Shown: positions 15,662-42,859 of the stretch, piece after piece
Layout of the letters: each line of letters starts with the position of its first letter
Numbering within the stretch: the stretch's first letter is position 1
Origin: Acetobacteraceae bacterium
GTDB lineage: Bacteria > Pseudomonadota > Alphaproteobacteria > Acetobacterales > Acetobacteraceae
Assembly: GCA_003164455.1 (NCBI GenBank)
Contig: PLTJ01000009.1
Span: 11,639 to 61,912 of the forward strand
Length of the DNA stretch: 50,274 bases
Reading direction: 5' to 3'
The notes under the pieces: model-generated
What the model saw: the letters and a program-made list of their open reading frames with translations, nothing else
Databases searched by the model: none
What the model was told of the DNA's origin: nothing
Translations under genes and position numbers: made by a program

Positions 15662-18600
15662 TTACTCTTCGCTCTCGCTGCCTTGGTCGCCGCCGTCCTC
15701 GACGATCGTCACCGCGATGTCGCAGCGGTCGTTGGGATGCGCCGGGGGCGCGTCATCACCAGACTGGAACGTGTCGTCCATGTCGATTTCCCCCTGGTCC
15801 GCGTTGGCTTGGCAGATTTCGCAAGGGTCATCGCCCACCAGCCAGGACTTCTTCATCTTGGCCCCGTACTCCTTGGCGGCCTCGCGGTAGCCCGTCATGG
15901 CTCCGGCCATGCTGGCATCGGCTGCCTCGGTCCTTGCGATGGTCAGCGAACGGGCCAGCGAGAACGCATAGTCCTCGCTCAGCAGATCGCGCGTCTGGGC
16001 CGCTGAAAGGCCATCCTCGTACGCCTGGGCCAGCGTGCCGCGCAGCATCTCGCGCGTCGTGTCGTCGATCCGCATCGCGGCTCGTTTGGCCGGCACCAGG
16101 TTGCCGTCCTCGTCGTACCGCATCCCGACCATCTCGGCGGCGCGCCGGCGGGCGTGGTCGAGCGCCTTTTCGTCCACGGCGTCGAAGACCGCGGAGTCGT
16201 CATGCTGTTCCGGCGCCACGGCCTCCACGGCGGCCTCGGCCGCTGCCTTGCCGGCCTGGACCGCGATCCGGCCGAGATCGGGCTCGATCTCGATCAGCTT
16301 CTTGAGCGCGTCCAGGCTGATCTGCGACGTAGCGGTATTGGCCCGCGCACCAGCGCTGGCTGCATCCTTGCCGAGCTGGTCGCCGATCTCGTTCAGAACC
16401 TCGTTGCGGAGCGCCGTCAGGACACGGTGGACCTTGTCGGCGATCGCCTGGACCTCGGCATCTCGGGGCTGCCGCACCGGCGGCAGGCGATGCGCCGCCG
16501 CCTTGCTGAGCGGATCAGTACCGGAACCAGTCGTGGCGATGAAAGGGACGGGGCCGCCTTCGGCTGCCTCCATCTTCCGCATCGCGTCCGGCGAGATCGG
16601 AGTCGTGGTCTTGCCGCTCTTCAGCCATTCCTTAAACCGGGCCATGGTCCATTCGTGGACCGAGCCGATGAAGTGGTGCCCGGGGTGTGCCGGTCCGCGA
16701 GTGTCGGCGTTCCGGTACGCGGCGATGAAATCGTGCTGCGCCTCGGACCAGTGGTGGTAGCCGATGAATGTCTTGTGCTCGTCGAATGATCCATCTTCCT
16801 TCACCTGATCGATGATGAAGACGGTGGCGCTTTCGGGATCCGGTCCGAGAAAGACATCGACCGGCTCGCCGTCGGCGTCTTTCGTGTCCTCGATGTAGCC
16901 GTACTCGGTCGGCATCACGGCGCGCCAGCCGTCGTGCCGGCTTTCGCGAATCGAACCCTGGGCGTTCTCGATCGCGATCGGGAGGCCTTGGATCTCGATA
17001 TGGCCCTTCTTGTAGTTGCCGGAGGCACGCTGGGCTTCGGTCGGGTCGCGGGCTGTTTCGGCCGCGGCCTCCTCGACCTCGGCGTGGGTTACCTTGGCGA
17101 GCCCGGAGTCGTCGTCGCCATACTCCGGCGACCCGAACAGCAGCATGCCGGGGAAGTTCGGCGGGACATCGTCCGGAACGTCGAGGGAAACCAGCATCCG
17201 CGGCGTGTCACCAAGCCAGCCGTCAAACGCGGCCATCTCGCGCCGCAGCTCATCGGACTCAAGCGCCAGCCAAACTCCAGTCGCATCCGCCTCTACCTTG
17301 ATCTGACCGGGCTCCACCAGGATCATCGGCGCCATCTCGGGGCTGAGCATGAGGTCGACCGGCCACGACAGCAGCCCGGCCGTCACGATCATCGCGACCG
17401 TCACGGCGGGCCGCTCGACCAGGCCGATGCCATAGCGATCGGCCCACTCGCTCAGCTCGTAGACGCTGTAAAGTGGGCGCTCGACCGAGATGACCTCCGA
17501 GCCCGCCATCTTGCGGGTGGCGCCGCTGGGCCGCGTGCCGGGCTGGACCGGCTCCACGGCATCGTCACGGCCGGGCCGCGGCGGCTTCGGCAGCTTGCCG
17601 CCGGGAGGGGCATGCACGTCGTTCGCCGGAATCGGTCCACCCGGACACGGCGTCAGTGCGGCCCGCTCGTCCGGGTCAACCGGCACATAGCCGGCGGCGG
17701 TCAGGACCATCGGCTTGGAGAACGCGCCGCCGAGCGGGTCCTGGCCGATCGATTCCCGCCAGTCGTCCAGCGCGATCGCCCCCTTGGTCGCGGCCGTGCT
17801 CAGGATGACGGACTGCTTGATCGGGTCGAATTCGCGGTCCCCATCCCAGGCGATGCCCAGGTAGTCGATCCCGAAGCAATCCCGGATGATGCCGTTGACG
17901 AACCGACGCATCCATTGCGAGGTCGGCTGCAGGCCCTCGGCGGACGCCTGGGCCTGGTTGACCTGCGCGGTAGCGCGATTCTGCTCCTTGATGAACGGCC
18001 CCGGCGCAATCGACATCGCGTAGCAGATGACGCGCGCAAGCCACTCGTCGAAGGCGTCGGTCAGGACGTCCTTCGTGAACGGCTCGTACTTGGTCCCGGC
18101 CGGCACCCACCAGAGGCGGCGCCGCTGCTCGATGTTGCCGAGGAAGACCGAATCCCAGTACTGCTGGATTTCGGTGATCTGGGCATTCGAGAACCCGACC
18201 GGCGCCTCCATGATTCCGACCGGGACATCGCCGTGGGTGTAGAAGGCCATCTGCTCGCGCAGCCGGGCGATCGCCATCTCGGCATAGGCAAGGACTTGCT
18301 CGCATGGGCCGTACCCGTAGGCGTGGTCAGGACGCCAGTTCTTGATGCCGTAGATCAGGTCGCCAGCCGTGTAGGTGGCGTAGTCGGCCGCCGGAATCCC
18401 CTTCAGGACCTGCTGGAACGCGGGGTTAGGCGGCTTCGGCGGCCGGCCGTTCTCGTCGATCAGAACCGAGATGCTGGCGGCGTCAAGCTGCTCAAGCGCG
18501 TAGAGCTGGCCGCCACGGTTGCGCCGCTTGTAGAGCGCGACAGCGTCATAGACGAAGTGCTGGTCCAGCACGCCGCTCAACCACTGTGACCAATCGAGCC

Positions 18601-19105
18601 GTTTGTCCGGCGACTCGAAGAACTTGGTCAGCAGCCTGATGTCGTCGGCGTATTTCTTCTTGAGCGCGGGGCGTTCGGCGGGAGAGCCGAGCGGCACAAT
18701 GTGCCAGTCCAGCGCGGTCATCTGATCAATGCGGGTCTGGATGCACTCCCGCAGGATCACGCAGTTCTGTGCCACCGCGCGGAGCCGCCCGAACGATACC
18801 GGCTCGTGGGAGCGCGGGATGTAGTTCAGGTTCCAGCCAACCGGGAAGTCGAACTGCCGCGACCGCGCGCTCTCCGGAGCGAATGGCCGCAGTGGCTGCA
18901 GCGGCGAGAACCAGGTCGACGGCGTGACACCGGAGATCGTGTACTGGACGGCCTGCGCGACACGGCGCAGCCATCCAGCCCGCGGCGCCGGGGCCGGCGG
19001 CGTCGTCAGGCGCCAGTTCTCGTTGGTGGGCCGGTTCCGCAGCAGCGCCGGATCGGAGGTGACGATCTGGCTCGCGGGCTGGCCATCGTTGATGCCGGCA
19101 GGCAC
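15662..19105 (-). CDS. Portal protein fused to degenerate 2H-phosphoesterase (Acb1-like), inorganic pyrophosphatase-like and MuF head morphogenesis domains
   Basis: Portal N-terminus (YGYGPCEQ, DEWLARVICYAMSI); GNYKKGH...IENAQGS...YGYI..T.DADGEPVDVFLG...DQ...FDEHK; IARTE...KKSW...CEIC..N...PPAHPNDRC. Confidence 0.88.
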   Translation of the reverse strand: MPAGINDGQPASQIVTSDPALLRNRPTNENWRLTTPPAPAPRAGWLRRVAQAVQYTISGVTPSTWFSPLQPLRPFAPESARSRQFDFPVGWNLNYIPRSHEPVSFGRLRAVAQNCVILRECIQTRIDQMTALDWHIVPLGSPAERPALKKKYADDIRLLTKFFESPDKRLDWSQWLSGVLDQHFVYDAVALYKRRNRGGQLYALEQLDAASISVLIDENGRPPKPPNPAFQQVLKGIPAADYATYTAGDLIYGIKNWRPDHAYGYGPCEQVLAYAEMAIARLREQMAFYTHGDVPVGIMEAPVGFSNAQITEIQQYWDSVFLGNIEQRRRLWWVPAGTKYEPFTKDVLTDAFDEWLARVICYAMSIAPGPFIKEQNRATAQVNQAQASAEGLQPTSQWMRRFVNGIIRDCFGIDYLGIAWDGDREFDPIKQSVILSTAATKGAIALDDWRESIGQDPLGGAFSKPMVLTAAGYVPVDPDERAALTPCPGGPIPANDVHAPPGGKLPKPPRPGRDDAVEPVQPGTRPSGATRKMAGSEVISVERPLYSVYELSEWADRYGIGLVERPAVTVAMIVTAGLLSWPVDLMLSPEMAPMILVEPGQIKVEADATGVWLALESDELRREMAAFDGWLGDTPRMLVSLDVPDDVPPNFPGMLLFGSPEYGDDDSGLAKVTHAEVEEAAAETARDPTEAQRASGNYKKGHIEIQGLPIAIENAQGSIRESRHDGWRAVMPTEYGYIEDTKDADGEPVDVFLGPDPESATVFIIDQVKEDGSFDEHKTFIGYHHWSEAQHDFIAAYRNADTRGPAHPGHHFIGSVHEWTMARFKEWLKSGKTTTPISPDAMRKMEAAEGGPVPFIATTGSGTDPLSKAAAHRLPPVRQPRDAEVQAIADKVHRVLTALRNEVLNEIGDQLGKDAASAGARANTATSQISLDALKKLIEIEPDLGRIAVQAGKAAAEAAVEAVAPEQHDDSAVFDAVDEKALDHARRRAAEMVGMRYDEDGNLVPAKRAAMRIDDTTREMLRGTLAQAYEDGLSAAQTRDLLSEDYAFSLARSLTIARTEAADASMAGAMTGYREAAKEYGAKMKKSWLVGDDPCEICQANADQGEIDMDDTFQSGDDAPPAHPNDRCDIAVTIVEDGGDQGSESEE

Positions 19106-27219: not shown

Positions 27220-27422
27220 TTCTGCCCCTCCGCCGTGAAGATCTGACGCATCCCCGCAGCGGTAACGTCGATCTCCGCCGTGACCTGGTAGCCTTCCGGG
27301 GCGGCGGCCAGCCAACGACGGAACGCCGCCACCATTGCGCGCCGGGCCGCGCAGAACTCGTCGTACGGACTGCTGCGGGGCACCTCTCGTATCGGAAGCG
27401 GTATTAGGTTGCTGGCGCTCAT
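27216..27422 (-). CDS. Small hypothetical protein
   Basis: 68 aa, coupled to neighbours on both sides. Confidence 0.55.
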   Translation of the reverse strand: MSASNLIPLPIREVPRSSPYDEFCAARRAMVAAFRRWLAAAPEGYQVTAEIDVTAAGMRQIFTAEGQN

Positions 27423-27877
27423 GCCGCTTCTCCAGCGAATCGCAACGGGGCCTGTCGCCGCTGCCACTTCTTCGGGACGGCCTTGATCTCTTCCCAGACC
27501 CTGGGATGCTGGCCTTTGAAGTCGGGCAGCCGAGGTCCGGCGATGAAGCCACGGCCGGCCGGATCCGGTACCAGCCAGCGGGAGCCATCGATCCAGCGGC
27601 GGATATCGACGTCCACGGCGCGGAAATCGTCGCGGGTCAGGTAGCCGGTTTCGCCAAGCAGAATCGCCAGCCGCAGCGCCCGGATCTTCCAGTTCGTAAG
27701 CTGGATCGGCGCCGATGCCCCGGCGACGACATCCGGCACGTACTCCGGCAGCGGGCACCGCCGCGCCGGCATCATCTCGTGCCAGTCACCGTCCTGGTAG
27801 TAGAGGGCATCCGGAACCGGCAGCGACGGCGAGAACGCGGGGCCACGGACGTACTTCGGATAGGGAACTATATACAT
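27419..27877 (-). CDS. Conserved phage hypothetical protein, probably the C-terminal part of a gene interrupted by the cassette end at 27863
   Basis: WHE..P..RC.LPEYVPDVVAG.SAP.QLT.WKI motif; the first codons come from the inverted repeat. Confidence 0.6.
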   Translation of the reverse strand: MYIVPYPKYVRGPAFSPSLPVPDALYYQDGDWHEMMPARRCPLPEYVPDVVAGASAPIQLTNWKIRALRLAILLGETGYLTRDDFRAVDVDIRRWIDGSRWLVPDPAGRGFIAGPRLPDFKGQHPRVWEEIKAVPKKWQRRQAPLRFAGEAA

Positions 27878-28221
27878 GACTCCCTTTTCCACTCATTTTG
27901 CAGCCGCGAACAACGGCGCATCGGTTCCAGAGACATGAGCAACCCGGCGCTCAATTCGTTGGCGTCGATGGTGCCAATCATCGGCTTGCGGGCCAATACA
28001 ATCGGCTCATGCGCCGGTTTCAGCGAAGCGCGCGACTTCGGAAATCCAGTTTTGTAAATCCACTGAATTTGATCGCGTATCTCGAAGCCCGCGTCCTCAA
28101 CAGCGCAAGCAAGCCGATGGTAGGTGCGCGAGCCACCGAAGGCGACGAAGTGCCCGCCGGGTTTGAGAACGCGGAGACATTCTCGCGACCACGCCTCGCA
28201 CCACTCCTGAAAGAGGTTCCC
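27863..28221 (-). mobile_element. Decayed IS1595/ISNwi-type non-autonomous cassette: one terminal repeat plus an internally deleted N4/N6 DNA methyltransferase passenger
   Basis: GGGAACTATATACATGACTCCCT (27863-27885) is 21/23 identical to the repeat at 32893. The passenger has LRVLKPGGH..AFGGSRTYHRL...EDAGFEIRD...GFPKS...LKPAHEPIVLARKP, plus an out-of-frame MTase tail IERRVAHVSGTDAPLFAAAK* ending 7 nt before the repeat. Confidence 0.75.
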
Positions 28222-28368
28222 GTGCAGGACCGGATCGTTGATGTGGACCCCGAGCAACGCGCGGGCGCGTTCGAGATAGCCGCCCGGGTAGGCACCGAAC
28301 AGCTTCGCGCCTTCTCGCAGACGCGGGCGCGCCAGGATCCATTCATCGGAGATCGGTCGGTATGTCAT
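28222..28368 (-). pseudogene. N-terminal fragment of a phage methyltransferase-like gene fused by deletion to the MTase passenger
   Basis: MTYRPISDEWILARP...FGAYPGGYLERARALLGVHINDPVLH switches abruptly to N4/N6 MTase sequence. Confidence 0.55.
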
Positions 28369-29312
28369 GCCGCTTTGTCCGGCTCCGCCGTCTTCGCGGG
28401 CGCCAGACCGCTCGGGCTTGAGCCAGGTCCAAACGGCTCGACCAGCACGAACTCGGGTAGCCGCCACTTCCGGCGATGCTGGTTCAGCCCTTCCATGTCG
28501 CCATTGAAGCGCGGCAGGCCAATCTTCCGCGCCAGCGCTGTGGCCTGGTTCCAGCCGATCTCGATGCGGCCGTACGGCCGCGGAAGCGGCAGCACAACCG
28601 GCGCCGGGGAAGGTGCCGCCGTGATCTCAGGTGCCGGGGAAACCGGCTTCGTCCCCGAAGTGATCGGCGGGGGTTCGGCGGCCCTTGGTGCTGCCGCGTT
28701 CGGCTGTGGTTCCGGGATCGCAGCCTTCTGGTCCGACGCCAGGACGGGCGACTTCCGCGGATCCGGCACACAGCCCGGGCGCCGCTTGAAGTGGCACTTC
28801 TTGATGACGACCCACACCGCCTTCGAGGTTTCGATATGGGGGCCGGGCAGCTTGTTGACCTCCGGCAGGATGGCGTCTTCCCAGAGACCGTCGCCCCACT
28901 TCTGCTCCACCAGTGCGACACGCTCGGGAGTCCATTTTACCGGAGGTCCGGGGCTCTTCTGGGTTGCCGGACGCACGACGACCTGCATCGCGGCCCCGAG
29001 GACGTTCGGAACTTTCGGCACTGGCGCTGGCGGAGGCGCCATCTCATCGTGCTGTTCTGGTGCGTCGGGTGGCGTCGGCGGAGCGACCTTGTCGGGCGTG
29101 GTGAGATCAGCCGCCGCGATCTTCGCGACAGCAGCATCGGCCACGGTGACCACGCCATGCGCCGGGTCTGGCGCTGGGAGGCGCGTCAGGAAGCGCTCGA
29201 CCAGCTCCTGCAGATCAGGGTCGAGCCCAACCGTGATGTGGTTCGGAACGCCGGTGATGGCAATCTCGATCATGCCGCTCTCCGCTGCAGTCGCCGCTGC
29301 CACTGCATCCAC
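28365..29312 (-). CDS. Pro-rich protein with a GcrA-like HTH and a C-terminal domain shared with the GcrA gene
   Basis: KWTPERVALVEQKWGDG; C-terminal IGW...ARKIG...LNQHRR...P. Confidence 0.6.
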   Translation of the reverse strand: MDAVAAATAAESGMIEIAITGVPNHITVGLDPDLQELVERFLTRLPAPDPAHGVVTVADAAVAKIAAADLTTPDKVAPPTPPDAPEQHDEMAPPPAPVPKVPNVLGAAMQVVVRPATQKSPGPPVKWTPERVALVEQKWGDGLWEDAILPEVNKLPGPHIETSKAVWVVIKKCHFKRRPGCVPDPRKSPVLASDQKAAIPEPQPNAAAPRAAEPPPITSGTKPVSPAPEITAAPSPAPVVLPLPRPYGRIEIGWNQATALARKIGLPRFNGDMEGLNQHRRKWRLPEFVLVEPFGPGSSPSGLAPAKTAEPDKAA

Positions 29313-30658
29313 GCCCAGCCGGGCTTGTAGCCGAGCTGATGCGCAAGATTGTGCATGTCGTGCAGCGAGTGCGCCTCGGCCAGCAGCGCGTCGAGGCTGG
29401 TGCGCTTGAGCTGCACGTCTTCCGGGCGCAGCTCGGCCAACTCGCCGGCGCGGCGCTCGACTTCGCGGGGGCTGCTGGCCGCCGCGGTAAACTCATGTCC
29501 GCAGCACGGACAACGATGCTGCGGAGGAAAGACGGCGTAACAGGCGGGGCACTGCCGGATCGCCGGCACGGCGCGGCGATGCCTGCGGCCTTCCAGCGAC
29601 CATTGCCGTGGCGTCTCCGCGAACCCATGCGCGGCGGTGTTGTTGGCGTGGTCCAGCACCACCAGGTGCGTCTTGTCCGGCATCGGGCGGAGGCCGCGGC
29701 CGATCTGCTGCAGATGCAGCGACAGGCTCTGGGTCGGCCGCAACAGGGTGACACAGCCAACCGCGGGGACATCGAGTCCCTCGGAAATCAGATCGGCCGC
29801 GCACACCACCTGCACGCTGCCGTGGGCCAGGCCGCCGAGTGCGGCATCGCGCTCGGCCGGCCGCATCTCGCCGTGCGCCGCCACCGCACGCCAGCCGGCG
29901 GCGCGGAATGCCTCGGCGACGTCCTTGGCGTGCTGCACCGAGACGCAGAACGCAATGCACGGCAGGCCCGGCGCATGCCGGGCGTAGTGCAGCACCGCAT
30001 CGCCGGTGATGGCTGCCTTGTCCATCGCCGCGGCGAGCTGGCGGGCATCGTAGTCGCCAGCAATGGTGCGCACTGCGGACAGGTCCGGTCCCGTGACCGG
30101 CGCCCAGACGCGCGTCGGCGTCAGATAGCCCGCCGCGACCAGCTCGGCGACCTGCGGGCCCATCACCAGGCGATCGAAAACGCCGCCGGCGGCGATACCG
30201 AGGCCGCGGGCGTCGAGGCGTTCCGGCGTCGCCGTGACGCCGAGCAGCTTGGCCTGCGGCTGCGACTTGATGATGGCGAGGTATTGGCCGGCGACGGAAT
30301 GGTGCGCCTCGTCGATGACGATCAACGCGAATCGCGGCAGCCGCGCAAGACGGCGCGCCACCGTCTGCACCGAGCCGACCTGCACCATATCGTCGGTCTC
30401 GGGATAACCCGGGGCGATGATGCCGTGCGGCACGCCGGCGTCGCGCAGCTTGTTGCTGGCCTGGCGGATCAGCTCGGCGCGGTGCGCCAGGATCAGCACC
30501 CGGTTGCCCTTGCCGTAGGCGCCGAGCGCCACGGCGGAGAAAACCACGGTCTTGCCCGAACCCGTGGCAGCACACAGCAGGGGCGCGGCGGCCCCTGTCA
30601 TGTACGCCTGCCGGAGGCTTTGGACTGCGGCCTCCTGATACGGGCGCAGGCGGACCAT
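29270..30658 (-). CDS. Superfamily 2 DEAH helicase (RadD/YejH-like) with a zinc finger
   Basis: LRPYQ, ATGSGKT, DEAHH, TATP, QQIGRGLR, CPAC/CPCC; TGATG start at 30658. Confidence 0.93.
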   Translation of the reverse strand: MVRLRPYQEAAVQSLRQAYMTGAAAPLLCAATGSGKTVVFSAVALGAYGKGNRVLILAHRAELIRQASNKLRDAGVPHGIIAPGYPETDDMVQVGSVQTVARRLARLPRFALIVIDEAHHSVAGQYLAIIKSQPQAKLLGVTATPERLDARGLGIAAGGVFDRLVMGPQVAELVAAGYLTPTRVWAPVTGPDLSAVRTIAGDYDARQLAAAMDKAAITGDAVLHYARHAPGLPCIAFCVSVQHAKDVAEAFRAAGWRAVAAHGEMRPAERDAALGGLAHGSVQVVCAADLISEGLDVPAVGCVTLLRPTQSLSLHLQQIGRGLRPMPDKTHLVVLDHANNTAAHGFAETPRQWSLEGRRHRRAVPAIRQCPACYAVFPPQHRCPCCGHEFTAAASSPREVERRAGELAELRPEDVQLKRTSLDALLAEAHSLHDMHNLAHQLGYKPGWAWMQWQRRLQRRAA

Positions 30659-30915
30659 CAGATCGGCGCCTCGTTCATTGGCGACGTGTCGCCCAGCGGC
30701 ATCTCGGGCTGGTCCGGCGTGATCGGCGCCGGCTTGCGCTCGCCCTCGTACTCCTCGGGGTCGGCCACCACGATCAGCACGCGCGCCCCCTGGCAGTCGA
30801 TCAGCTCGTGTCGCCGCTCCTCGAACTTCGACATCGTCAGGGCGGCCTTGATGCCGTCCTTGACCGTGATGCTTTCGAGAGTGGCGGGAATCGTGCGTCG
30901 GCCGTTGGCAGCGAG
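30658..30915 (-). pseudogene. C-terminal part of a conserved phage protein with its N-terminus missing
   Basis: AANGRRTIPATLESITVKDGIKA...RHELID..G..VLIVVADP is protein-like; the upstream in-frame sequence is low-complexity and hairpin-rich. Confidence 0.5.
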
Positions 30916-31555
30916 ACGGGAGCAACGAAGGATGGAGGTCGGTGCACAGACTTTGGCGACGGTAGACAACGGCAGGCGCCCGGTGCTGGGGAGCATGGAC
31001 GGGCGCCGGCACGCGCGGTGGGATGATGCAGTCGCGGCAACAGGCGCTGCGGCTACACGATCGTACCGAGGGGTTGGTCCCGACGCGGCCACACGCACCG
31101 CGCCGGGCGCCGAGGGTCGCAGCAGCAGCAGCGCGGGAGAGGTGAGGAAGCCCGCGTGGTTGCCGTTCGTGTGCCTCGGGTGGCAATGGGAAAGTGCGGC
31201 CGGCCCTGCGACCGGCCGCGAGTTGGGGGAGGAGACGCCAGCGTGGCGAATGACCGCGGCCACGCACGCGGAAACGACGCCAGCGGGACGCCCGGCGTTA
31301 CCGGGTAGCGGCCCCCCGCTGACGCGCGTCACACACCGGGCCGCATCGCATGGAGTAGCACCAGTCGGCCGGAGTCTGTGTGTGGCGAAGGGGAACATGG
31401 TGCGACGCTGCTAGCCCCCGAACAGCCACGCCAGGGCAAGCACCGCGGCCCCGATGCAGGCGACGTCGGCCAGCAGAATGGCGGGGATCAGTCCCACGTC
31501 ACCCACCGCAAGGCGCCGACGGCGCAGAGCCATGGCACCAGCATGAGGGCAGTGA

Positions 31556-31690
31556 TCACCGCTGCACCCAGCCCTGGTCGTCCGCGCGTCGCCGGGTCTC
31601 GGCCACGCGACGCTCCCGCTGCCGCTCACATGCGACGCAGAACCCGCAATACGAGACGATGATGAGGACGACGATGATACCCGCGGTCAT
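31556..31690 (-). CDS. 44-aa single-transmembrane peptide
   Basis: MTAGIIVVLIIVSYCGFCVACERQRERR...; ATGA overlap with the XRE gene; absent from the ORF track. Confidence 0.5.
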   Translation of the reverse strand: MTAGIIVVLIIVSYCGFCVACERQRERRVAETRRRADDQGWVQR

Positions 31691-31941
31691 GTCACACCTC
31701 GCTTCGCCAGCTCTTCATCGACGCGCGACACGCACGCCTCGACCAGCAGCTCGCGCGCCGACACGCCCAGCACACGCTCGATGGCGATGGCCTGCTCGAC
31801 GGAAACGAATCGGCGGCCATGGATGAGGTAGGAGAGCTGCGACGCGTTGATTCCCAATTCGCGCGCCAGTGCGGCAACACCGTGCCGCGCCTGGGCGGCG
31901 TCCTGCAGCAGGGCGGCCAGACGTGCATGCAGCGGCGGCAT
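31687..31941 (-). CDS. XRE-family HTH regulator (HigA-like)
   Basis: AALARELGINASQLSYLIHGRRFVSVEQAIAIERVLGVSA. Confidence 0.85.
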   Translation of the reverse strand: MPPLHARLAALLQDAAQARHGVAALARELGINASQLSYLIHGRRFVSVEQAIAIERVLGVSARELLVEACVSRVDEELAKRGVT

Positions 31942-32156
31942 CAGGCGGCCTCACGCGATTCGGTGGCGGGCGCATCCCACAGATCCGGACGCAGCTCGTG
32001 ACGCGGGATGCCGCTGGCGCAGGCCACTGCGGCAACGCGCTTGGGTGGGATGTCTTCCCAGGAATAGAGCGACTCCATCCTGATCCCCAACTCCCTCGCG
32101 AGGGCCGTGGGACCGCCGGCTGCCGCGATCGCCCGCTTTACGATCTCACTTTGCAT
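31941..32156 (-). CDS. Cro/YdaS-like repressor
   Basis: AAGGPTALARELGI...SW..IP..R......SGIPRHELRPDLW; first gene from the leftward promoter. Confidence 0.9.
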   Translation of the reverse strand: MQSEIVKRAIAAAGGPTALARELGIRMESLYSWEDIPPKRVAAVACASGIPRHELRPDLWDAPATESREAA

Positions 32157-32161
32157 GCCTT

Positions 32162-32284
32162 GGACACTAAGCGATGCCTAGCGGAATATCAATAGGCAAA
32201 CGCTAGGTGCGACTCCGGTACGCAAAAAGGACAATCTCGCTAGGCTGTGCCTATTGACGTTTCGCTAGGCGTCGCTTAGTGTCC
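32162..32284. promoter_or_regulatory. Divergent early promoters formed by a 37-bp inverted repeat with CGCTAGG operator motifs
   Basis: Plus strand: TTGACG(32254)-17-TAGTGT. Minus strand: TTGATA-17-TAGTGT. Arms 32162-32198 and 32248-32284 are inverted copies with 4 mismatches. Confidence 0.85.
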
Positions 32285-32312
32285 CCTCGCTCCCGCGACG
32301 AGGAGACCCCCG

Positions 32313-32510
32313 ATGTCACGTCCCGATCTCACCCTCCAGGCCGCTCTCCGCATCGCCCATTCGGCCGGCACAGACGCCGCGAACCGTTCCGCGCGTCGCG
32401 GCGGGCGCAGCGCTTGGTCGGACACCGATCGCGATGCGGCGCAACGGGCCACGGAGACGGCGCTGCGCGGGTTGGGGTTCGGCCAGTTCGTGACATCAGA
32501 GGTCGCCTGA
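32313..32510 (+). CDS. Hypothetical protein (first rightward early gene)
   Basis: AGGAG RBS; 65 aa. Confidence 0.7.
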   Translation: MSRPDLTLQAALRIAHSAGTDAANRSARRGGRSAWSDTDRDAAQRATETALRGLGFGQFVTSEVA

Positions 32511-32511
32511 G

Positions 32512-32892
32512 ATGCTCACCGGCCTCTGCACCGCTCTTGAAGCCCAGCCGGCCCCGCCGCTGGTGGTGATCCCGCGGCCTTATCCTGAGTTCGCCGGCGA
32601 CCTCGACCCGGCGAAGTTGCCGGCCACGGGGCTTCCGCGGAGCGACACCTACCAGTCGCTCGCCGCGCGCCGGGTCCGCGAGACCCGGCAATGGGTCCGC
32701 GACGCGATCTACGAAGGCCGGCACTACGAGGCCAGCGAAGAGGTCCGGCTCGCGCTACGGGCGCTCCGGTACTGGCAGCGCCGCCTCGTGCTGGCCCCCG
32801 TGCACGATGCGATGCGAGAGCAGCGGCGCCTGCAGCGTGTCGTCGATCTGGCGCGGCGCGAGACGCCGGCCGCGCTGCTGGCCGCAGAATAG
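32512..32892 (+). CDS. Hypothetical protein
   Basis: GAGG RBS; its stop codon lies inside the cassette target site. Confidence 0.65.
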   Translation: MLTGLCTALEAQPAPPLVVIPRPYPEFAGDLDPAKLPATGLPRSDTYQSLAARRVRETRQWVRDAIYEGRHYEASEEVRLALRALRYWQRRLVLAPVHDAMREQRRLQRVVDLARRETPAALLAAE

Positions 32893-33570
32893 GGGAATTA
32901 TATAGATGACTCCCTCTAATCATTTCAGAATCGGTCTAGTGGCCGAAGCGTCTGAACTGGTGGAACGATTTCACTACAGCGGCCGTGTGCCTGCCAACTT
33001 GCAATGCGTTGGGACTTGGCATGCGGATGGCGGACTGTTCGGAGATCAAGGTCAAGTGATAGCCGCGTGCTTCTTTTCTATCCCGCCGACACGATGGTCC
33101 GAAGATGTCTGGGAATTATCGCGTTTGGTGCGCCGGGATGACGCGGCGGTATCGTTGACCGGCCTGATAGCTGCGACCGTGCGTTTCCTGGCCCGTAGGA
33201 AGGCCATGGACCTGTTGGTGTCGTTCGCCGATGCCACGCATGGGCACCACGGGGCATCTACCAAGCGGCTTCATGGGCTTATGCGGGGCAGCGTGAACGG
33301 CGACAGGACGGCCTGATGATTAACGGAGTTTTCCATCCTTGTCGATCTTGTAACTCTCGTTGGGGAACGAGTTCCCCAACGAAATTAGCCATCCGGTTGC
33401 CGGATCACACGATTGAACCGCATTGGGATGACGGCAAGCATCTCTATTGGCGAGCATTGAATAAATCTGGTCGTGCAAAGGCTAAAAGGTTGGGCTTGGA
33501 AGCGTTGGCATATCCAAAACCACAATGGGCAGCGTTATGAGGGAGCGAGGGAGTAATGTATATAATTCCC
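32893..33570 (+). mobile_element. Non-autonomous IS1595 (ISNwi-type) mobile insertion cassette carrying a mom-like gene
   Basis: Terminal inverted repeats GGGAATTATATAGATGACTCCCT and AGGGAGTAATGTATATAATTCCC (21/23); 8-bp direct repeat CAGAATAG at 32885-32892 and 33571-33578; lower GC; no transposase. Confidence 0.88.
32906..33540 (+). pseudogene. mom: Mom-family adenine modification (GNAT-like) protein split by a -1 frameshift at G4 33251-33254
   Basis: FHYS...WELSRL...LLVSFADATHGHHG continues in the -1 frame as GIYQAASWAYAG...GKHLYW...LAYPK, matching the Mom SFAD..GH.G.IYQA..W.Y motif. Confidence 0.8.
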
Positions 33571-33588
33571 CAGAATAGGGAGATCGTC

Positions 33589-34065
33589 ATGGACACCAAC
33601 GTCACCGACACCGTTCGGTCGGAAATCACTGACATCATGGTCGGCGCCTGCACGGCCAGCATCTATCGCACCGGCAGCGTCTACCTGCACGGCGGCAGCA
33701 TTGGCGGCGGTTGCACCATCATCGATCCCGAGCACATGGACGACGCCATCACCGCTCTGACCGCTGCGCGCGATGCCAGCGCCGACCTGAAGCCGTTGCC
33801 GGTCGCCATCGCTGAGGCCAGCAAGCTGATCGACCAGGCGAAGAAGCTGCTGCTGCCCGTTGAGCACGATCTCGGTGTCGAAGCCAGCGCCGCCGGCGAT
33901 GCCGATGAGGATGTCGCCGGCGCCTACGTGGACGCCCAGACCGACATGGCCAGCGCCCTCGGTGAGCTGGGCGGCGTGCTCGACGGGCTGCGGCTGATCT
34001 CGTCCGGGATCGCCACCGCACGCCGCTACCGCGCCGAGGCGGCGAAGTCGCGCGCCGCGGCCTGA
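33589..34065 (+). CDS. Hypothetical protein
   Basis: GGAG RBS right after the target duplication; an alternative in-frame ATG at 33556 lies in the terminal repeat. Confidence 0.7.
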   Translation: MDTNVTDTVRSEITDIMVGACTASIYRTGSVYLHGGSIGGGCTIIDPEHMDDAITALTAARDASADLKPLPVAIAEASKLIDQAKKLLLPVEHDLGVEASAAGDADEDVAGAYVDAQTDMASALGELGGVLDGLRLISSGIATARRYRAEAAKSRAAA

Positions 34066-34100
34066 TCCATCCCCGCCAGTCTCAACGCAGGATATCCGCA

Positions 34101-34283
34101 ATGTTCCATGATGAGCCCGTCCCTTCTGACGGCGTGATGACCCGGCAACGCATGCGCGCCGCATCGCGTGCCACTGCCAAGGCCGAGCGCCAGGAGGCCG
34201 GGCGCCAGGTTCACCTCGCCCGCCGCAACGCACTGCTGGCACGCCGCCGCGCACGGAACGCCGGCCACAAGGCCGCGGCATGA
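34101..34283 (+). CDS. Small basic hypothetical protein
   Basis: AGGA RBS; ATGA overlap with the next gene. Confidence 0.55.
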   Translation: MFHDEPVPSDGVMTRQRMRAASRATAKAERQEAGRQVHLARRNALLARRRARNAGHKAAA

Positions 34284-41145: not shown

Positions 41146-41510
41146 TGGTCGATCGTCCCATCATCTTCAGCGCGCCCATGATCCGCGCGCTGTCTGCCGG
41201 CCGGAAAACGCAGACGCGCCGGCTGGCAATTCAGCAGGTGAGGCGCCGGGTTCGGGTTGGCGAGCCGACGGTCGTGATCGTTGAACGGCCGTCGCCATGG
41301 CAGAGGGTCAAGCCTGGGGATCGCCTGTGGGTGCGAGAGGAATGGCGGGTTGGTCGTCGCTGGGATGCGACCAAGCCACGCAATCTCCCTCCACGCGCCA
41401 TGACAGTGATGTTCGATGCTGGCGGTTCCGTCGCGAATGAAGGTATTGGCAAGGGCTGGCCCAAGGGCCGGCGGCCTGAAGCGACCCGAAATTGGGAAGA
41501 GAGAACATGA
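41145..41510 (+). pseudogene. ASCH-like phage protein, C-terminally truncated
   Basis: RPIIFSAPMIRAL..GRKTQTRR...PGDRLWVRE; lacks the usual PSIHMPRWASR...VERLQ half. Confidence 0.6.
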
Positions 41511-42859
41511 GAAACAGGACTGACCCACTTGAGGCGCGCGCCCGGGAACTGGCGATGGCGGCCGGGAAGAACCCGGATGACCGTGTCACCGTTCCCGGTA
41601 AGCCGCGCGGCATGCCGACGTGGTGCCTGTACCGCGGCGATGCCCGCGTCGAGCAGAATGCCCGCGAGCAGTCTGCACTGGCAGCGGAGAACGCCAGTCT
41701 TCGCCCGCAGGCGCCGCAATACCAGGATGGCCCGCTTACCGTCCTCGGCGCACACGACTACGCCACCATCGAGCAGATGCGGAACTGCATGAAGGTCGGC
41801 AACGTCGTGGCCGGCGTGATCTGTGCTGATGGCCATCTCGGCTATGCGCAGCCCGTTGGCGGCGTCGTTGCCTATGAGCGGCAGGTTTCCATCTCTGGCG
41901 TGGGATTCGACATCGGCTGCGGCAACATGGCCGTACGGCTCGACGTTCCGTTCTCGACCATCGAGGATCGGGTCGGCGCGATCATGGCCGACATTGCGCA
42001 CGTCGTCTCATTCGGCATCGGACGGCCGAACGGCGAGAGAGTCGAGCACGAGCTGCTGGACGATACCGAAGCGTGGGCGGCCTCCGGGATGGAGGAGTAC
42101 CGGCCGAAGGCGGCGGCGCAGCTCGGCACGGTCGGTGGCGGCAACCACTACGTCGATCTGCTGCGCGACGAGAGCGGCCTGGTGTGGATTGGGGTCCATT
42201 TCGGCTCGCGTGGCCTCGGCCACACCACCGCGACGAAGTACTTGAAGCTGGCGGGAGGCAAGGACGGCATGAACGTTCCGCCCGCCATCGTGGACGAGGA
42301 CTCCGACGTCGGGCGTGCCTACCTCGCCGCGATGAAGCTTGCCGGGCGCTACGCCTACGCCGGGCGGGAATGGGTGTGCGAGCGTGTCCGCCGGATCATT
42401 GGTGGAACCGTGACGGATACCGTGCACAACCACCACAACTATGCCTGGCGCGAGCGGCACGCCGATCGTGATCTCTGGGTTGTTCGCAAGGGCGCCACTC
42501 CCGCCTTCCCCGGCCAGCGTGGTTTCGTCGGTGGCTCCATGGGCGACGACGCCGTGATCCTTGAGGGCGTCGAGAGCGAGCAATCGAAGGCAGCGCTCTA
42601 CTCCACGGTACACGGTGCCGGGCGCTTGTTCGGCAGGAAAGAAGCCAAGCGACGCTTCGCCCGGCCGGAGATGGACTCCTGGTTGCGCGAGCGCGGCGTC
42701 ACGCTGATCGGCGGCGATCTCGACGAAAGCCCGATGGCCTATCGCCGGCTGCCGGATGTCCTGTCGGCGTGTGCCGACAGTGTCCGGGTGCTGCATACCC
42801 TGCGCCCGGTCGGCGTGGTCATGGCCGGGGAAGGCGAATTCGACCCCTGGAAGGACTGA
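41507..42859 (+). CDS. rtcB: RtcB-family RNA ligase
   Basis: DGHLGY..PVGGV, GFDIGCG, LGTVGGGNHY, VHFGSRGLG, HNHHN, RKGAT, STVHGAGR, DESPMAYR. Confidence 0.95.
   Translation: MRNRTDPLEARARELAMAAGKNPDDRVTVPGKPRGMPTWCLYRGDARVEQNAREQSALAAENASLRPQAPQYQDGPLTVLGAHDYATIEQMRNCMKVGNVVAGVICADGHLGYAQPVGGVVAYERQVSISGVGFDIGCGNMAVRLDVPFSTIEDRVGAIMADIAHVVSFGIGRPNGERVEHELLDDTEAWAASGMEEYRPKAAAQLGTVGGGNHYVDLLRDESGLVWIGVHFGSRGLGHTTATKYLKLAGGKDGMNVPPAIVDEDSDVGRAYLAAMKLAGRYAYAGREWVCERVRRIIGGTVTDTVHNHHNYAWRERHADRDLWVVRKGATPAFPGQRGFVGGSMGDDAVILEGVESEQSKAALYSTVHGAGRLFGRKEAKRRFARPEMDSWLRERGVTLIGGDLDESPMAYRRLPDVLSACADSVRVLHTLRPVGVVMAGEGEFDPWKD

What the first reader, a model, noticed from the sequence alone, without database searches (positions are those of the whole stretch)
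32885..33578. Transposase-less IS1595-type cassette delivering a mom-like DNA hypermodification gene into a phage
Seen: a 678-bp lower-GC unit with 23-bp terminal inverted repeats and an 8-bp target duplication CAGAATAG. Removing it restores ...GAA TAG GGAG atcgtc ATG, so it landed between a stop codon and the next RBS without breaking either gene. Its only cargo starts at an ATG inside the left repeat. Known: IS1595-family elements make 8-bp duplications, ISNwi-group ends begin GGnnatTAT as I recall, and Mom modifies adenines to block restriction. Inference: together with the MTase copy, this is a family of minimal mobile cassettes that shuttle anti-restriction genes among phages, mobilised in trans.
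Basis: partly seen in the sequence, partly recalled or inferred. Interest (0 to 1): 0.88.

Follow-up and report, generated by a model that had tools for sequence, protein, structure and literature searches.

The report
Jumping cassette with broken Mom gene
A 678-base jumping-gene cassette with no transposase of its own sits between two genes of a phage and carries a Mom-family gene that is split by a frameshift and so likely dead, while elements with the same ends, with and without a transposase, occur in many other phages and often carry DNA-modification genes that likely shield phage DNA from host enzymes.

Summary
The structure is real: 678 bp, 23-bp inverted repeats (21/23), exact 8-bp duplication, 54% GC in a 67% phage. 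Eight sequencing runs show the same letters, so the break is real and the gene is likely null. The 'MTase copy' is a one-ended, doubly deleted relic.

The family is confirmed: 76 duplication-flanked elements share these ends (45 with a full IS1595 transposase, 5 partial, 26 without). In phage contigs, 9 of 22 larger passengers are DNA-modification genes, against 3 of 133 flanking genes. The family also sits in host chromosomes. No empty site was found, and no transposase-less cassette was seen at two sites, so mobilisation in trans is inferred.

This is a mobile insertion cassette (a known kind) of an IS1595 lineage common in phages. This scan found the family before on other DNA, with methyltransferase or dpdA cargo. 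New here: the Mom cargo, and the finding that the phage-borne transposase genes keep their antisense frame stop-free, often from the repeat's ATG, which suggests non-polar insertion in either direction.

The parts
32885..32892 (.). Left copy of the 8-bp target duplication CAGAATAG; ends in the stop codon of the upstream gene
32893..32915 (+). Left terminal inverted repeat, 23 bp, of the ATG-bearing type: TAG at repeat bases 11-13, ATG at 14-16 (cargo start), TGA at 15-17
32906..33253 (+). 5' half of the Mom-family gene (116 codons; Pfam PF25680 positions 10-118; phrog_1384). Read on in this frame it stops at 33316 after 136 aa
33251..33254 (+). G4 run where the reading frame breaks inside the conserved HHGG-IYQA motif
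   Evidence: same letters in 8 runs
33253..33540 (+). 3' half of the Mom-family gene in another frame (95 codons plus stop; Pfam positions 120-202, below the curated cut-off on its own)
33548..33570 (-). Right terminal inverted repeat; holds an outward-reading ATG (33556) in frame with the downstream gene's ATG (33589)
33571..33578 (.). Right copy of the 8-bp target duplication
32512..32892 (+). Upstream phage gene, 126 aa, intact, no relatives found
33589..34065 (+). Downstream phage gene, 158 aa, intact, only its own cluster found
32162..32284. 45-bp inverted repeat holding two mirror-image promoter-like sites (TTGACG/TTGATA-17-TAGTGT at 32254-32282 + and 32192-32164 -); the + site points at the operon that holds the cassette (function inferred; the consensus scan did not list them)
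27863..27885 (+). Solo end of a second, wrecked element of the same family (2 mismatches to each end of the cassette)
27893..28214 (-). Two remnants of an N6/N4 methyltransferase cargo (27970-28214 and 27893-27955), 74% and 80% identical in DNA to the cargo beside the same end in L078, with about 590 bp missing between them
28222..28368 (-). First 49 codons of the phage's own ~180-aa methyltransferase-family gene (relative L202 hits phrog_3816), fused to the cargo remnant
27419..27862 (-). 3' part of a ~260-aa phage gene (phrog_15779) whose first ~110 residues are absent from the genome; the solo end supplies an in-frame ATG at 27877

Best explanation
This is a transposase-less IS1595-family cassette, flanked by an exact 8-bp target duplication, whose single Mom-family gene is frameshifted and likely inactive; it was likely inserted into a phage operon by a cognate transposase supplied in trans. 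Shown: the ends, the duplication, the absence of a transposase on this circular 61.9-kb phage, cognate autonomous elements with the same ends in other phages and genomes, and the break in the gene. Inferred steps: (1) an element of this lineage captured an ordinary phage mom gene and fused it to the ATG in its end; (2) a helper element, probably on a co-infecting phage or prophage, moved the unit to this AT-rich site between two genes; (3) the unit has no promoter or terminator of its own and would be read through from the phage promoter, with stop/start codons in the ends passing ribosomes in and out so that neighbours are spared; (4) while intact, the enzyme would have modified adenines much as Mu Mom does and blocked host restriction; (5) a one-base loss then silenced it recently, plausibly because unregulated expression in an early-type operon was costly. 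The same phage also carries the wreck of a methyltransferase cassette that took most of its own methyltransferase gene with it, so modification genes appear to be gained and discarded here.
For: Structure. Family: 76 distinct elements with paired ends and a duplication of at most 1 mismatch (72 exact); 45 full transposase, 5 partial, 26 none (from the loci that had enough flank). Transposase passes NF033547. Near-identical autonomous copies at different target sites (L037/L040 97%, L152 91%) show movement. No IS1595 transposase on this contig; the four in the bin are 26-28% identical to the cognate type and the bin has no further cognate end. Mom identity: Pfam; a profile of 27 intact homologs hits Mu Mom 8BV8 at E 6.8e-6; the fold of the closest intact homolog has 8BV8 as top match, E 1.8e-9, TM 0.63. 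Null: 117 of 120 homologs keep HHGG[IV]Y and all are 204 aa or longer; the lost half holds the Y159 equivalent and the insertion whose deletion abolishes Mu Mom activity (PMC13219725 section 13). Recent: 47/47 and 33/34 conserved columns are kept. Capture of an ordinary gene: 1 of 164 Mom loci has these ends, and it is this same phage locus. Cargo bias: 9 of 22 vs 3 of 133. Co-orientation of cargo with flanking genes in 9 of 10 scorable transposase-less phage cassettes. No terminator-like site in 31600-34200. Mu mom is cytotoxic when untimely (PMC3378877 passages).
Against: No empty-site allele: not in 8 runs, IMG/VR, 100 related genomes, GenBank phages or the protein collection. None of the 26 transposase-less elements was seen at a second target site, and no empty site was seen for any of the 76 among the loci held. 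This subfamily has Thr at the position of Mu Mom R151 (108 of 120) and, in this protein and the profile consensus, Thr at S124, so its chemistry may differ from Mu Mom. No expression data. The cost of early expression is an inference from Mu; the phage's lifestyle is unknown (no integrase among the ORFs scanned).
Confidence: 0.72

Rival explanations
1. Deletion in place: a transposase-bearing element with mom as passenger inserted here and then lost its transposase, so the 678-bp unit never moved as such.
For: Five elements carry partial transposases and none of 26 transposase-less units was found at two sites. The relic at 27863 shows that such elements suffer deletions in this very phage.
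Against: No transposase remnant in the cassette, and the mom frames fill 635 of 678 bp. The ATG-type end lies downstream of the transposase and its passengers in 43 of 45 autonomous elements, yet here and in most single-gene cassettes the cargo starts at that end, which a simple deletion would not give. The scan pattern required one ATG-type end, so this tally is biased in what it can see.
Confidence: 0.2
2. The cassettes are selfish by-products that sample whatever lies in phage accessory regions; DNA-modification cargo is common only because such genes are self-contained and tolerated, not because phages are selected to keep them.
For: Both elements in this phage are broken. Counting all sizes, only 12 of 48 non-transposase passengers in phage elements are modification-linked. 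Chromosomal copies carry mostly unknown or membrane-type passengers.
Against: Odds ratio about 30 over the flanking genes of the same phages, with or without the PAPS-reductase-like genes. Cargo is co-oriented with the operon in 9 of 10 scorable cassettes. The other modification cargoes seen are uninterrupted reading frames of 159-435 codons.
Confidence: 0.2
3. The frameshift is a switch: slipped-strand change in the G run, or ribosomal slippage, turns Mom on in a minority of phage genomes.
For: The break is in a homopolymer run, and both halves are almost undecayed. Some intact homologs use a G5 run at this motif.
Against: The run is only 4 G; phase-variable tracts are usually 7 or longer (own knowledge). 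No slippery heptamer is visible at the site. No variant in 8 runs, though contigs drop rare variants.
Confidence: 0.07

Closest known systems
Mobile insertion cassettes (MICs): MIC231 of Bacillus cereus; TALE-carrying MICs of Xanthomonas TnXax1 (PMC4337579 passages; PMC3129680 passages)
   Same: Passenger gene between IS-type inverted repeats, no transposase, target duplication, cognate autonomous element with the same ends, solo ends nearby.
   Different: IS1595 ends rather than IS231 or Tn3 ends; sits in a phage operon; 678 bp with the start codon inside the repeat; cargo is a DNA-modification gene; mobilisation in trans not tested.
IS1595 family and its transporter IS forms, e.g. MTnSag1 and tISCpe8 (PMC8101967 passages; PMC5704250 passages; the family paper by Siguier, Gagnevin and Chandler 2009 was not available)
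   Same: 8-bp duplication, ~23-25-bp repeats starting GG, cognate transposase with Zn-ribbon and DDE_Tnp_IS1595 domains, passenger genes.
   Different: No transposase in this copy. The lineage's transposases are 57-85% identical to each other but at most 45% to anything in PLSDB plasmids, 39% in GenBank phages and 47% in 151 kin genomes. Phage-borne members keep the antisense frame open.
Phage Mu Mom (GNAT fold, Gly-tRNA-dependent adenine hypermodification; PMC13219725 abstract, passages and section 13)
   Same: Pfam PF25680; 8BV8 is the top sequence-profile and fold match for intact homologs; H58, Y59, R111, D149 equivalents kept.
   Different: About 20% identity; Thr at the S124 and R151 positions; no Com/C-type control region; this copy is frameshifted before the Y159 equivalent and the essential insertion.
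Inverted-repeat-flanked restriction-modification units with 8-bp duplications in Xanthomonas and Neisseria (PMC2853133 passages)
   Same: DNA-modification genes between inverted repeats, 8-bp duplication, no transposase, trans-acting transposase suggested.
   Different: Those are chromosomal R-M systems with empty sites shown and no cognate IS named; this is a phage counter-defence-type gene with the cognate IS1595 identified and no empty site found.

Membership tests
IS1595 family (non-autonomous derivative) | 8-bp target site duplication | tested here: met
   Exact CAGAATAG on both sides; 72 of 76 family elements exact
IS1595 family (non-autonomous derivative) | Terminal inverted repeats shared with elements encoding an IS1595 transposase | tested here: met
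   45 elements with the same ends carry a full transposase; PF12762, PF12760, NF033547 above cut-off for those scanned
IS1595 family (autonomous element) | Encodes its own DDE transposase | tested here: not met
   No tblastn hit in the cassette or on the contig
ISNwi subgroup of IS1595 | Clustering with ISfinder ISNwi members and their end consensus | not testable with these tools
   ISfinder not available; alignment supplements of PMC8101967 unreadable. The Zn-ribbon domain excludes only the IS1016 group. The ISNwi end motif is recalled, not tested
Mobile insertion cassette (MIC) | Passenger gene between IS repeats, no transposase | tested here: met
Mobile insertion cassette (MIC) | Mobilised in trans by a cognate transposase | not testable with these tools
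   Needs an assay; no cassette at two sites among 26
Mobile insertion cassette (MIC) | Empty-site allele with one copy of the target | tested here: inconclusive
   None found, but no relative of the flanking genes was found either
Mom family (PF25680) | Profile match above the curated cut-off | tested here: met
   5' half 39.1 bits vs cut-off 27.1; 3' half 23.3 bits, continuing the profile
Mom family (PF25680) | GNAT fold closest to Mu Mom | tested here: met
   Model of intact homolog P0001 (pLDDT 90) matches 8BV8 first; the broken gene itself was not folded
Active Mom enzyme | Intact frame including Y159 and the HTH-like insertion | tested here: not met
   Frameshift after codon 116; requirement from PMC13219725 section 13
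Active Mom enzyme | Catalytic residues H58, Y59, R111, S124, D149, R151 | tested here: inconclusive
   Four kept; S124 and R151 positions are Thr (alignment, numbering offset 9 inferred from the delta-10 S124A construct)
Active Mom enzyme | Installs 6-NcmdA on DNA using Gly-tRNA | not testable with these tools
   Needs biochemistry

The most novel reading that the evidence does not exclude
This IS1595 lineage is a transposon adapted to phage operons. Its ends carry stop-restart codons and its transposase gene keeps a stop-free antisense frame, so it can land in either orientation without polarity. Its transposase-less cassettes put a real phage gene in place of that filler frame. Together they form a lending pool of DNA-modification genes (N6/N4, C5 and Dam methyltransferases, Mom, QueD, PAPS-reductase-like) that phages gain and discard as host defences shift between restriction and modification-dependent attack. 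This phage, with a dead Mom cassette and a dead methyltransferase cassette, would be caught in the discard phase.
Probability: 0.35. Interest if true: 0.78.

Novelty: new variant of a known kind. Interest (0 to 1): 0.52.

Why it matters
Phage DNA-modification genes are patchily spread, and the vehicle that moves them between unrelated phages is poorly known. This lineage offers one with defined ends, a cognate transposase and a simple trans-mobilisation test. It extends the cargo to hypermodification genes: a broken Mom here and an uninterrupted Mom-family gene in L035. The stop-free antisense frame and the stop-restart ends would be a testable design for insertion into dense operons without polarity. 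For this copy the practical lesson is modest: the phage likely has no working Mom, so the cassette records a past gain and loss and is not an active defence.

Tried and rejected
Sequencing error as the cause of the frameshift: rejected; contigs of 8 runs from 8 studies and one identical metagenome contig (L358) carry the same letters. These runs may include the window's source and hold a near-clonal phage, so they are not independent lineages.

A 5.7-kb composite element from 27863 to 33570: rejected, no duplication. A hidden partner for the 27863 end: none within 6 mismatches under a duplication; the missing gene halves are absent from the bin.

Empty-site searches all failed: two protein scans of IMG/VR, 100 related genomes, GenBank phages, the protein collection, joints in 8 runs (the two joints listed have 20-base sides and do not match the cassette), and a flank test of 76 elements against the loci held.

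Mom as a habitual cassette passenger: rejected for this subfamily, 1 of 164 loci. Phage exclusivity: rejected. A helper in the binned genome or its kin: not found; 6 of 151 genomes have only 38-47% relatives. Restriction-site avoidance in the phage genome: nothing clear beyond CTAG. A promoter inside the cassette: one weak reverse-strand match, at chance level. The transposase tree does not separate viral from chromosomal copies into clades (5 changes each).

Literature searches that found no description of phage-borne IS1595 cassettes with modification cargo or of the antisense frame: (listings only, apart from the papers cited). Four IS reviews or papers asked for by id were not held (five look-ups), so prior description in them or in ISfinder is not excluded.

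Full report
OBSERVATION. The element runs 32893-33570 (678 bp), with 23-bp inverted repeats (21/23) and an exact duplication CAGAATAG. GC is 0.54 against 0.67, and GC3 is 0.47-0.62 against 0.86-0.87 in three phage genes. It is the best repeat-plus-duplication pair in the window; three shuffles reach 14-16 of 23. It lies between the stop of a 126-aa gene and the ribosome site of a 158-aa gene, so neither is broken. The window is part of a 61,912-bp contig with a 25-nt terminal repeat, that is a circular genome, with terminase, portal, sheath and baseplate genes. The runs that hold it are labelled peat metagenome.

THE CARGO IS BROKEN. Pfam Mom positions 10-118 match 32906-33253 and positions 120-202 match 33253-33540 in a different frame. 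The break is in a G4 run inside the motif HHGG-IYQA, which 117 of 120 homologs keep; all 120 are 204 aa or longer, because only longer proteins were searched. Read as written, the gene gives 136 aa. Contigs of 8 of 8 runs laid, at depth about 6-143, show no other letter or indel, and a metagenome contig identical over 1,789 bp has the same break. A profile of 27 intact homologs hits Mu Mom (8BV8, E 6.8e-6), and the model of the closest intact homolog has 8BV8 as its top fold match. In that alignment H58, Y59, R111 and D149 are kept, the S124 and R151 positions are Thr, and Y159 and the insertion at about 175-209 fall after the break. Deleting that insertion abolishes Mu Mom activity (PMC13219725; I read the abstract, passages and section 13). 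The gene is therefore likely null. The loss looks recent: 47 of 47 and 33 of 34 conserved columns are intact.

THE SECOND END. A third repeat at 27863 has no partner and no duplication. Beside it are two pieces of an N6/N4 methyltransferase, 74% and 80% identical in DNA to the gene next to the same end in L078, with about 590 bp missing between them. They are fused to the first 49 codons of a phage gene whose relatives are ~180-aa methyltransferase-family proteins. On the other side, the first ~110 residues of a ~260-aa gene are gone from the genome. This is the wreck of a methyltransferase cassette. It supports the family reading, but it is not a working copy.

THE FAMILY. Among these loci I found 76 distinct elements with paired ends and a duplication of at most one mismatch (72 exact): 45 with a full transposase, 5 partial, 26 without (one of the 26, L147, holds a distant IS1595 gene). 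Elements with mismatched duplications or no partner in reach were left out of this count (listed). The transposase is IS1595 by Pfam and NCBIfam. Targets are 79% AT, and near-identical autonomous copies sit at different sites. No cognate transposase lies on this phage or in its bin, and kin genomes hold only 38-47% relatives (6 of 151).

CARGO AND HABITAT. In the 35 phage elements, 9 of 22 non-transposase passengers of 110 aa or more are methyltransferases or PAPS-reductase-like, against 3 of 133 flanking genes (Fisher p 8e-7; 7 of 22 vs 2 of 133 without the PAPS-like genes). My gene caller clipped the Mom of L035 and the QueD of L008 below that size, so they are not in the 9. The role of phage PAPS-reductase-like genes in DNA modification is my own recall. 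Counting all sizes, 12 of 48 passengers are modification-linked; the rest are small unknown genes. The family is not phage-exclusive. Of 25 genome loci on larger contigs, scanned by their 4-5 longest flanking proteins, I read 16 as host-gene context, 4 as phage-like and 5 as unclear. Mom itself is mostly a native phage gene: 1 of 164 loci has these ends, and it is this same locus. L035 is a separate 628-bp cassette with an uninterrupted 186-aa Mom-family gene.

WIRING. The entry end reads TAG (11-13), ATG (14-16), TGA (15-17), so two of three incoming frames stop at the restart codon. The exit end here has an ATG in frame with the next gene. The ATG-type end is downstream of the transposase in 43 of 45 autonomous elements, yet 11 of 26 transposase-less elements have a frame from that ATG covering 88% or more of their length; in L011 this frame is antisense to a Dam gene. 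The in-register antisense frame of the transposase is stop-free in 32 of 43 elements (2 more were not parsed), against 0 of 39 control genes at GC about 0.55, 18 of 89 at 0.60 and 34 of 83 at 0.65. In 9 of 43 it starts at the end's ATG and spans most of the element. Eleven viral transposase genes under 85% identity use 3 TCA/CTA/TTA codons where control rates predict 22; a chromosome-like set uses 29, but I assigned part of that set after seeing the stops, and related genes are not independent. I read this as selection against polarity in phage operons. That is inference; no expression was measured.

MECHANISM. Most likely (0.72), a lineage member captured a phage mom gene and fused it to its end's ATG, a helper element moved the unit in trans, the phage promoter read through it, and a one-base loss then silenced it. 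The cassette is the third gene after a mirror-image promoter pair beside the cro-like genes, and untimely Mu mom expression is toxic (PMC3378877, passages), which gives a plausible reason. Deletion in place (0.2), neutral sampling of accessory genes (0.2) and a phase switch (0.07) remain; they are not mutually exclusive. No empty site was found and no cassette was seen at two sites.

KNOWN AND NEW. It works like, and meets the structural definition of, a mobile insertion cassette (PMC4337579, PMC3129680, PMC3281130; passages). IS1595 features are from PMC8101967 and PMC5704250 (passages). Repeat-flanked R-M units with 8-bp duplications are in PMC2853133 (passages). Eight searches found no paper on phage-borne IS1595 cassettes with modification cargo, but the family paper and IS reviews were not held and ISfinder could not be consulted, so ISNwi membership and prior naming are open. 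This scan listed eight earlier findings of the same kind on other DNA, with methyltransferase or dpdA cargo; I did not check that their ends are the same as these. None matched the Mom protein or the antisense-frame words. Verdict: a new variant of a known kind; a real but dead copy of an interesting family. Interest 0.52.

Noticed in passing
L005, L009, L028, L062, L065, L072, L168, L174, L182 (also L016, L026): Autonomous elements whose antisense frame runs stop-free from the ATG in the end across 91-99% of the element (396-774 codons); TCA/CTA/TTA codons are depleted in viral transposase genes.
   Followed up: partly
L015 3001-5500, L153 8001-9491, L183 7436-8918, L021 3001-4443: Elements with a third, internal end; the duplication matches the outer pair. 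This suggests capture of neighbouring DNA by use of an extra end.
   Followed up: no
L008 1868-3022: Transposase-less 1,155-bp cassette with a QueD-like gene and a 215-aa gene (phrog_15826), possibly part of a 7-deazaguanine pathway.
   Followed up: partly
L035 2395-3022: 628-bp cassette with exact duplication and an uninterrupted 186-aa Mom-family gene of another subfamily, near portal and terminase genes.
   Followed up: partly
window 32162-32284: 45-bp inverted repeat made of two mirror-image promoter-like sites between divergent operons; two small HTH/cro-like genes follow on the minus strand, and no integrase was found among the ORFs scanned.
   Followed up: partly
window 15662-19105 (-): 1,147-aa protein fusing a portal domain, an InPase domain (PF18823) and a Mu F-like domain.
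   Followed up: no
window 41492-42859 (+): Phage-encoded RtcB RNA ligase (PF01139, E 3.8e-66).
   Followed up: no
run X16, laid at window 32893-32925: A short contig carries the same end (33 bases, 2 differences) with a different flank, so a sibling element is present in the same community (depth 2, weak).
   Followed up: no
L127 949-1119, L137 7913-8022: 171-bp and 110-bp miniature elements with the same ends and exact duplications.
   Followed up: no
alignment A1 and P0001-P0120: A large Mom subfamily in which the Mu R151 position, essential in Mu, is Thr in 108 of 120 proteins; its product may differ from the Mu modification.
   Followed up: partly
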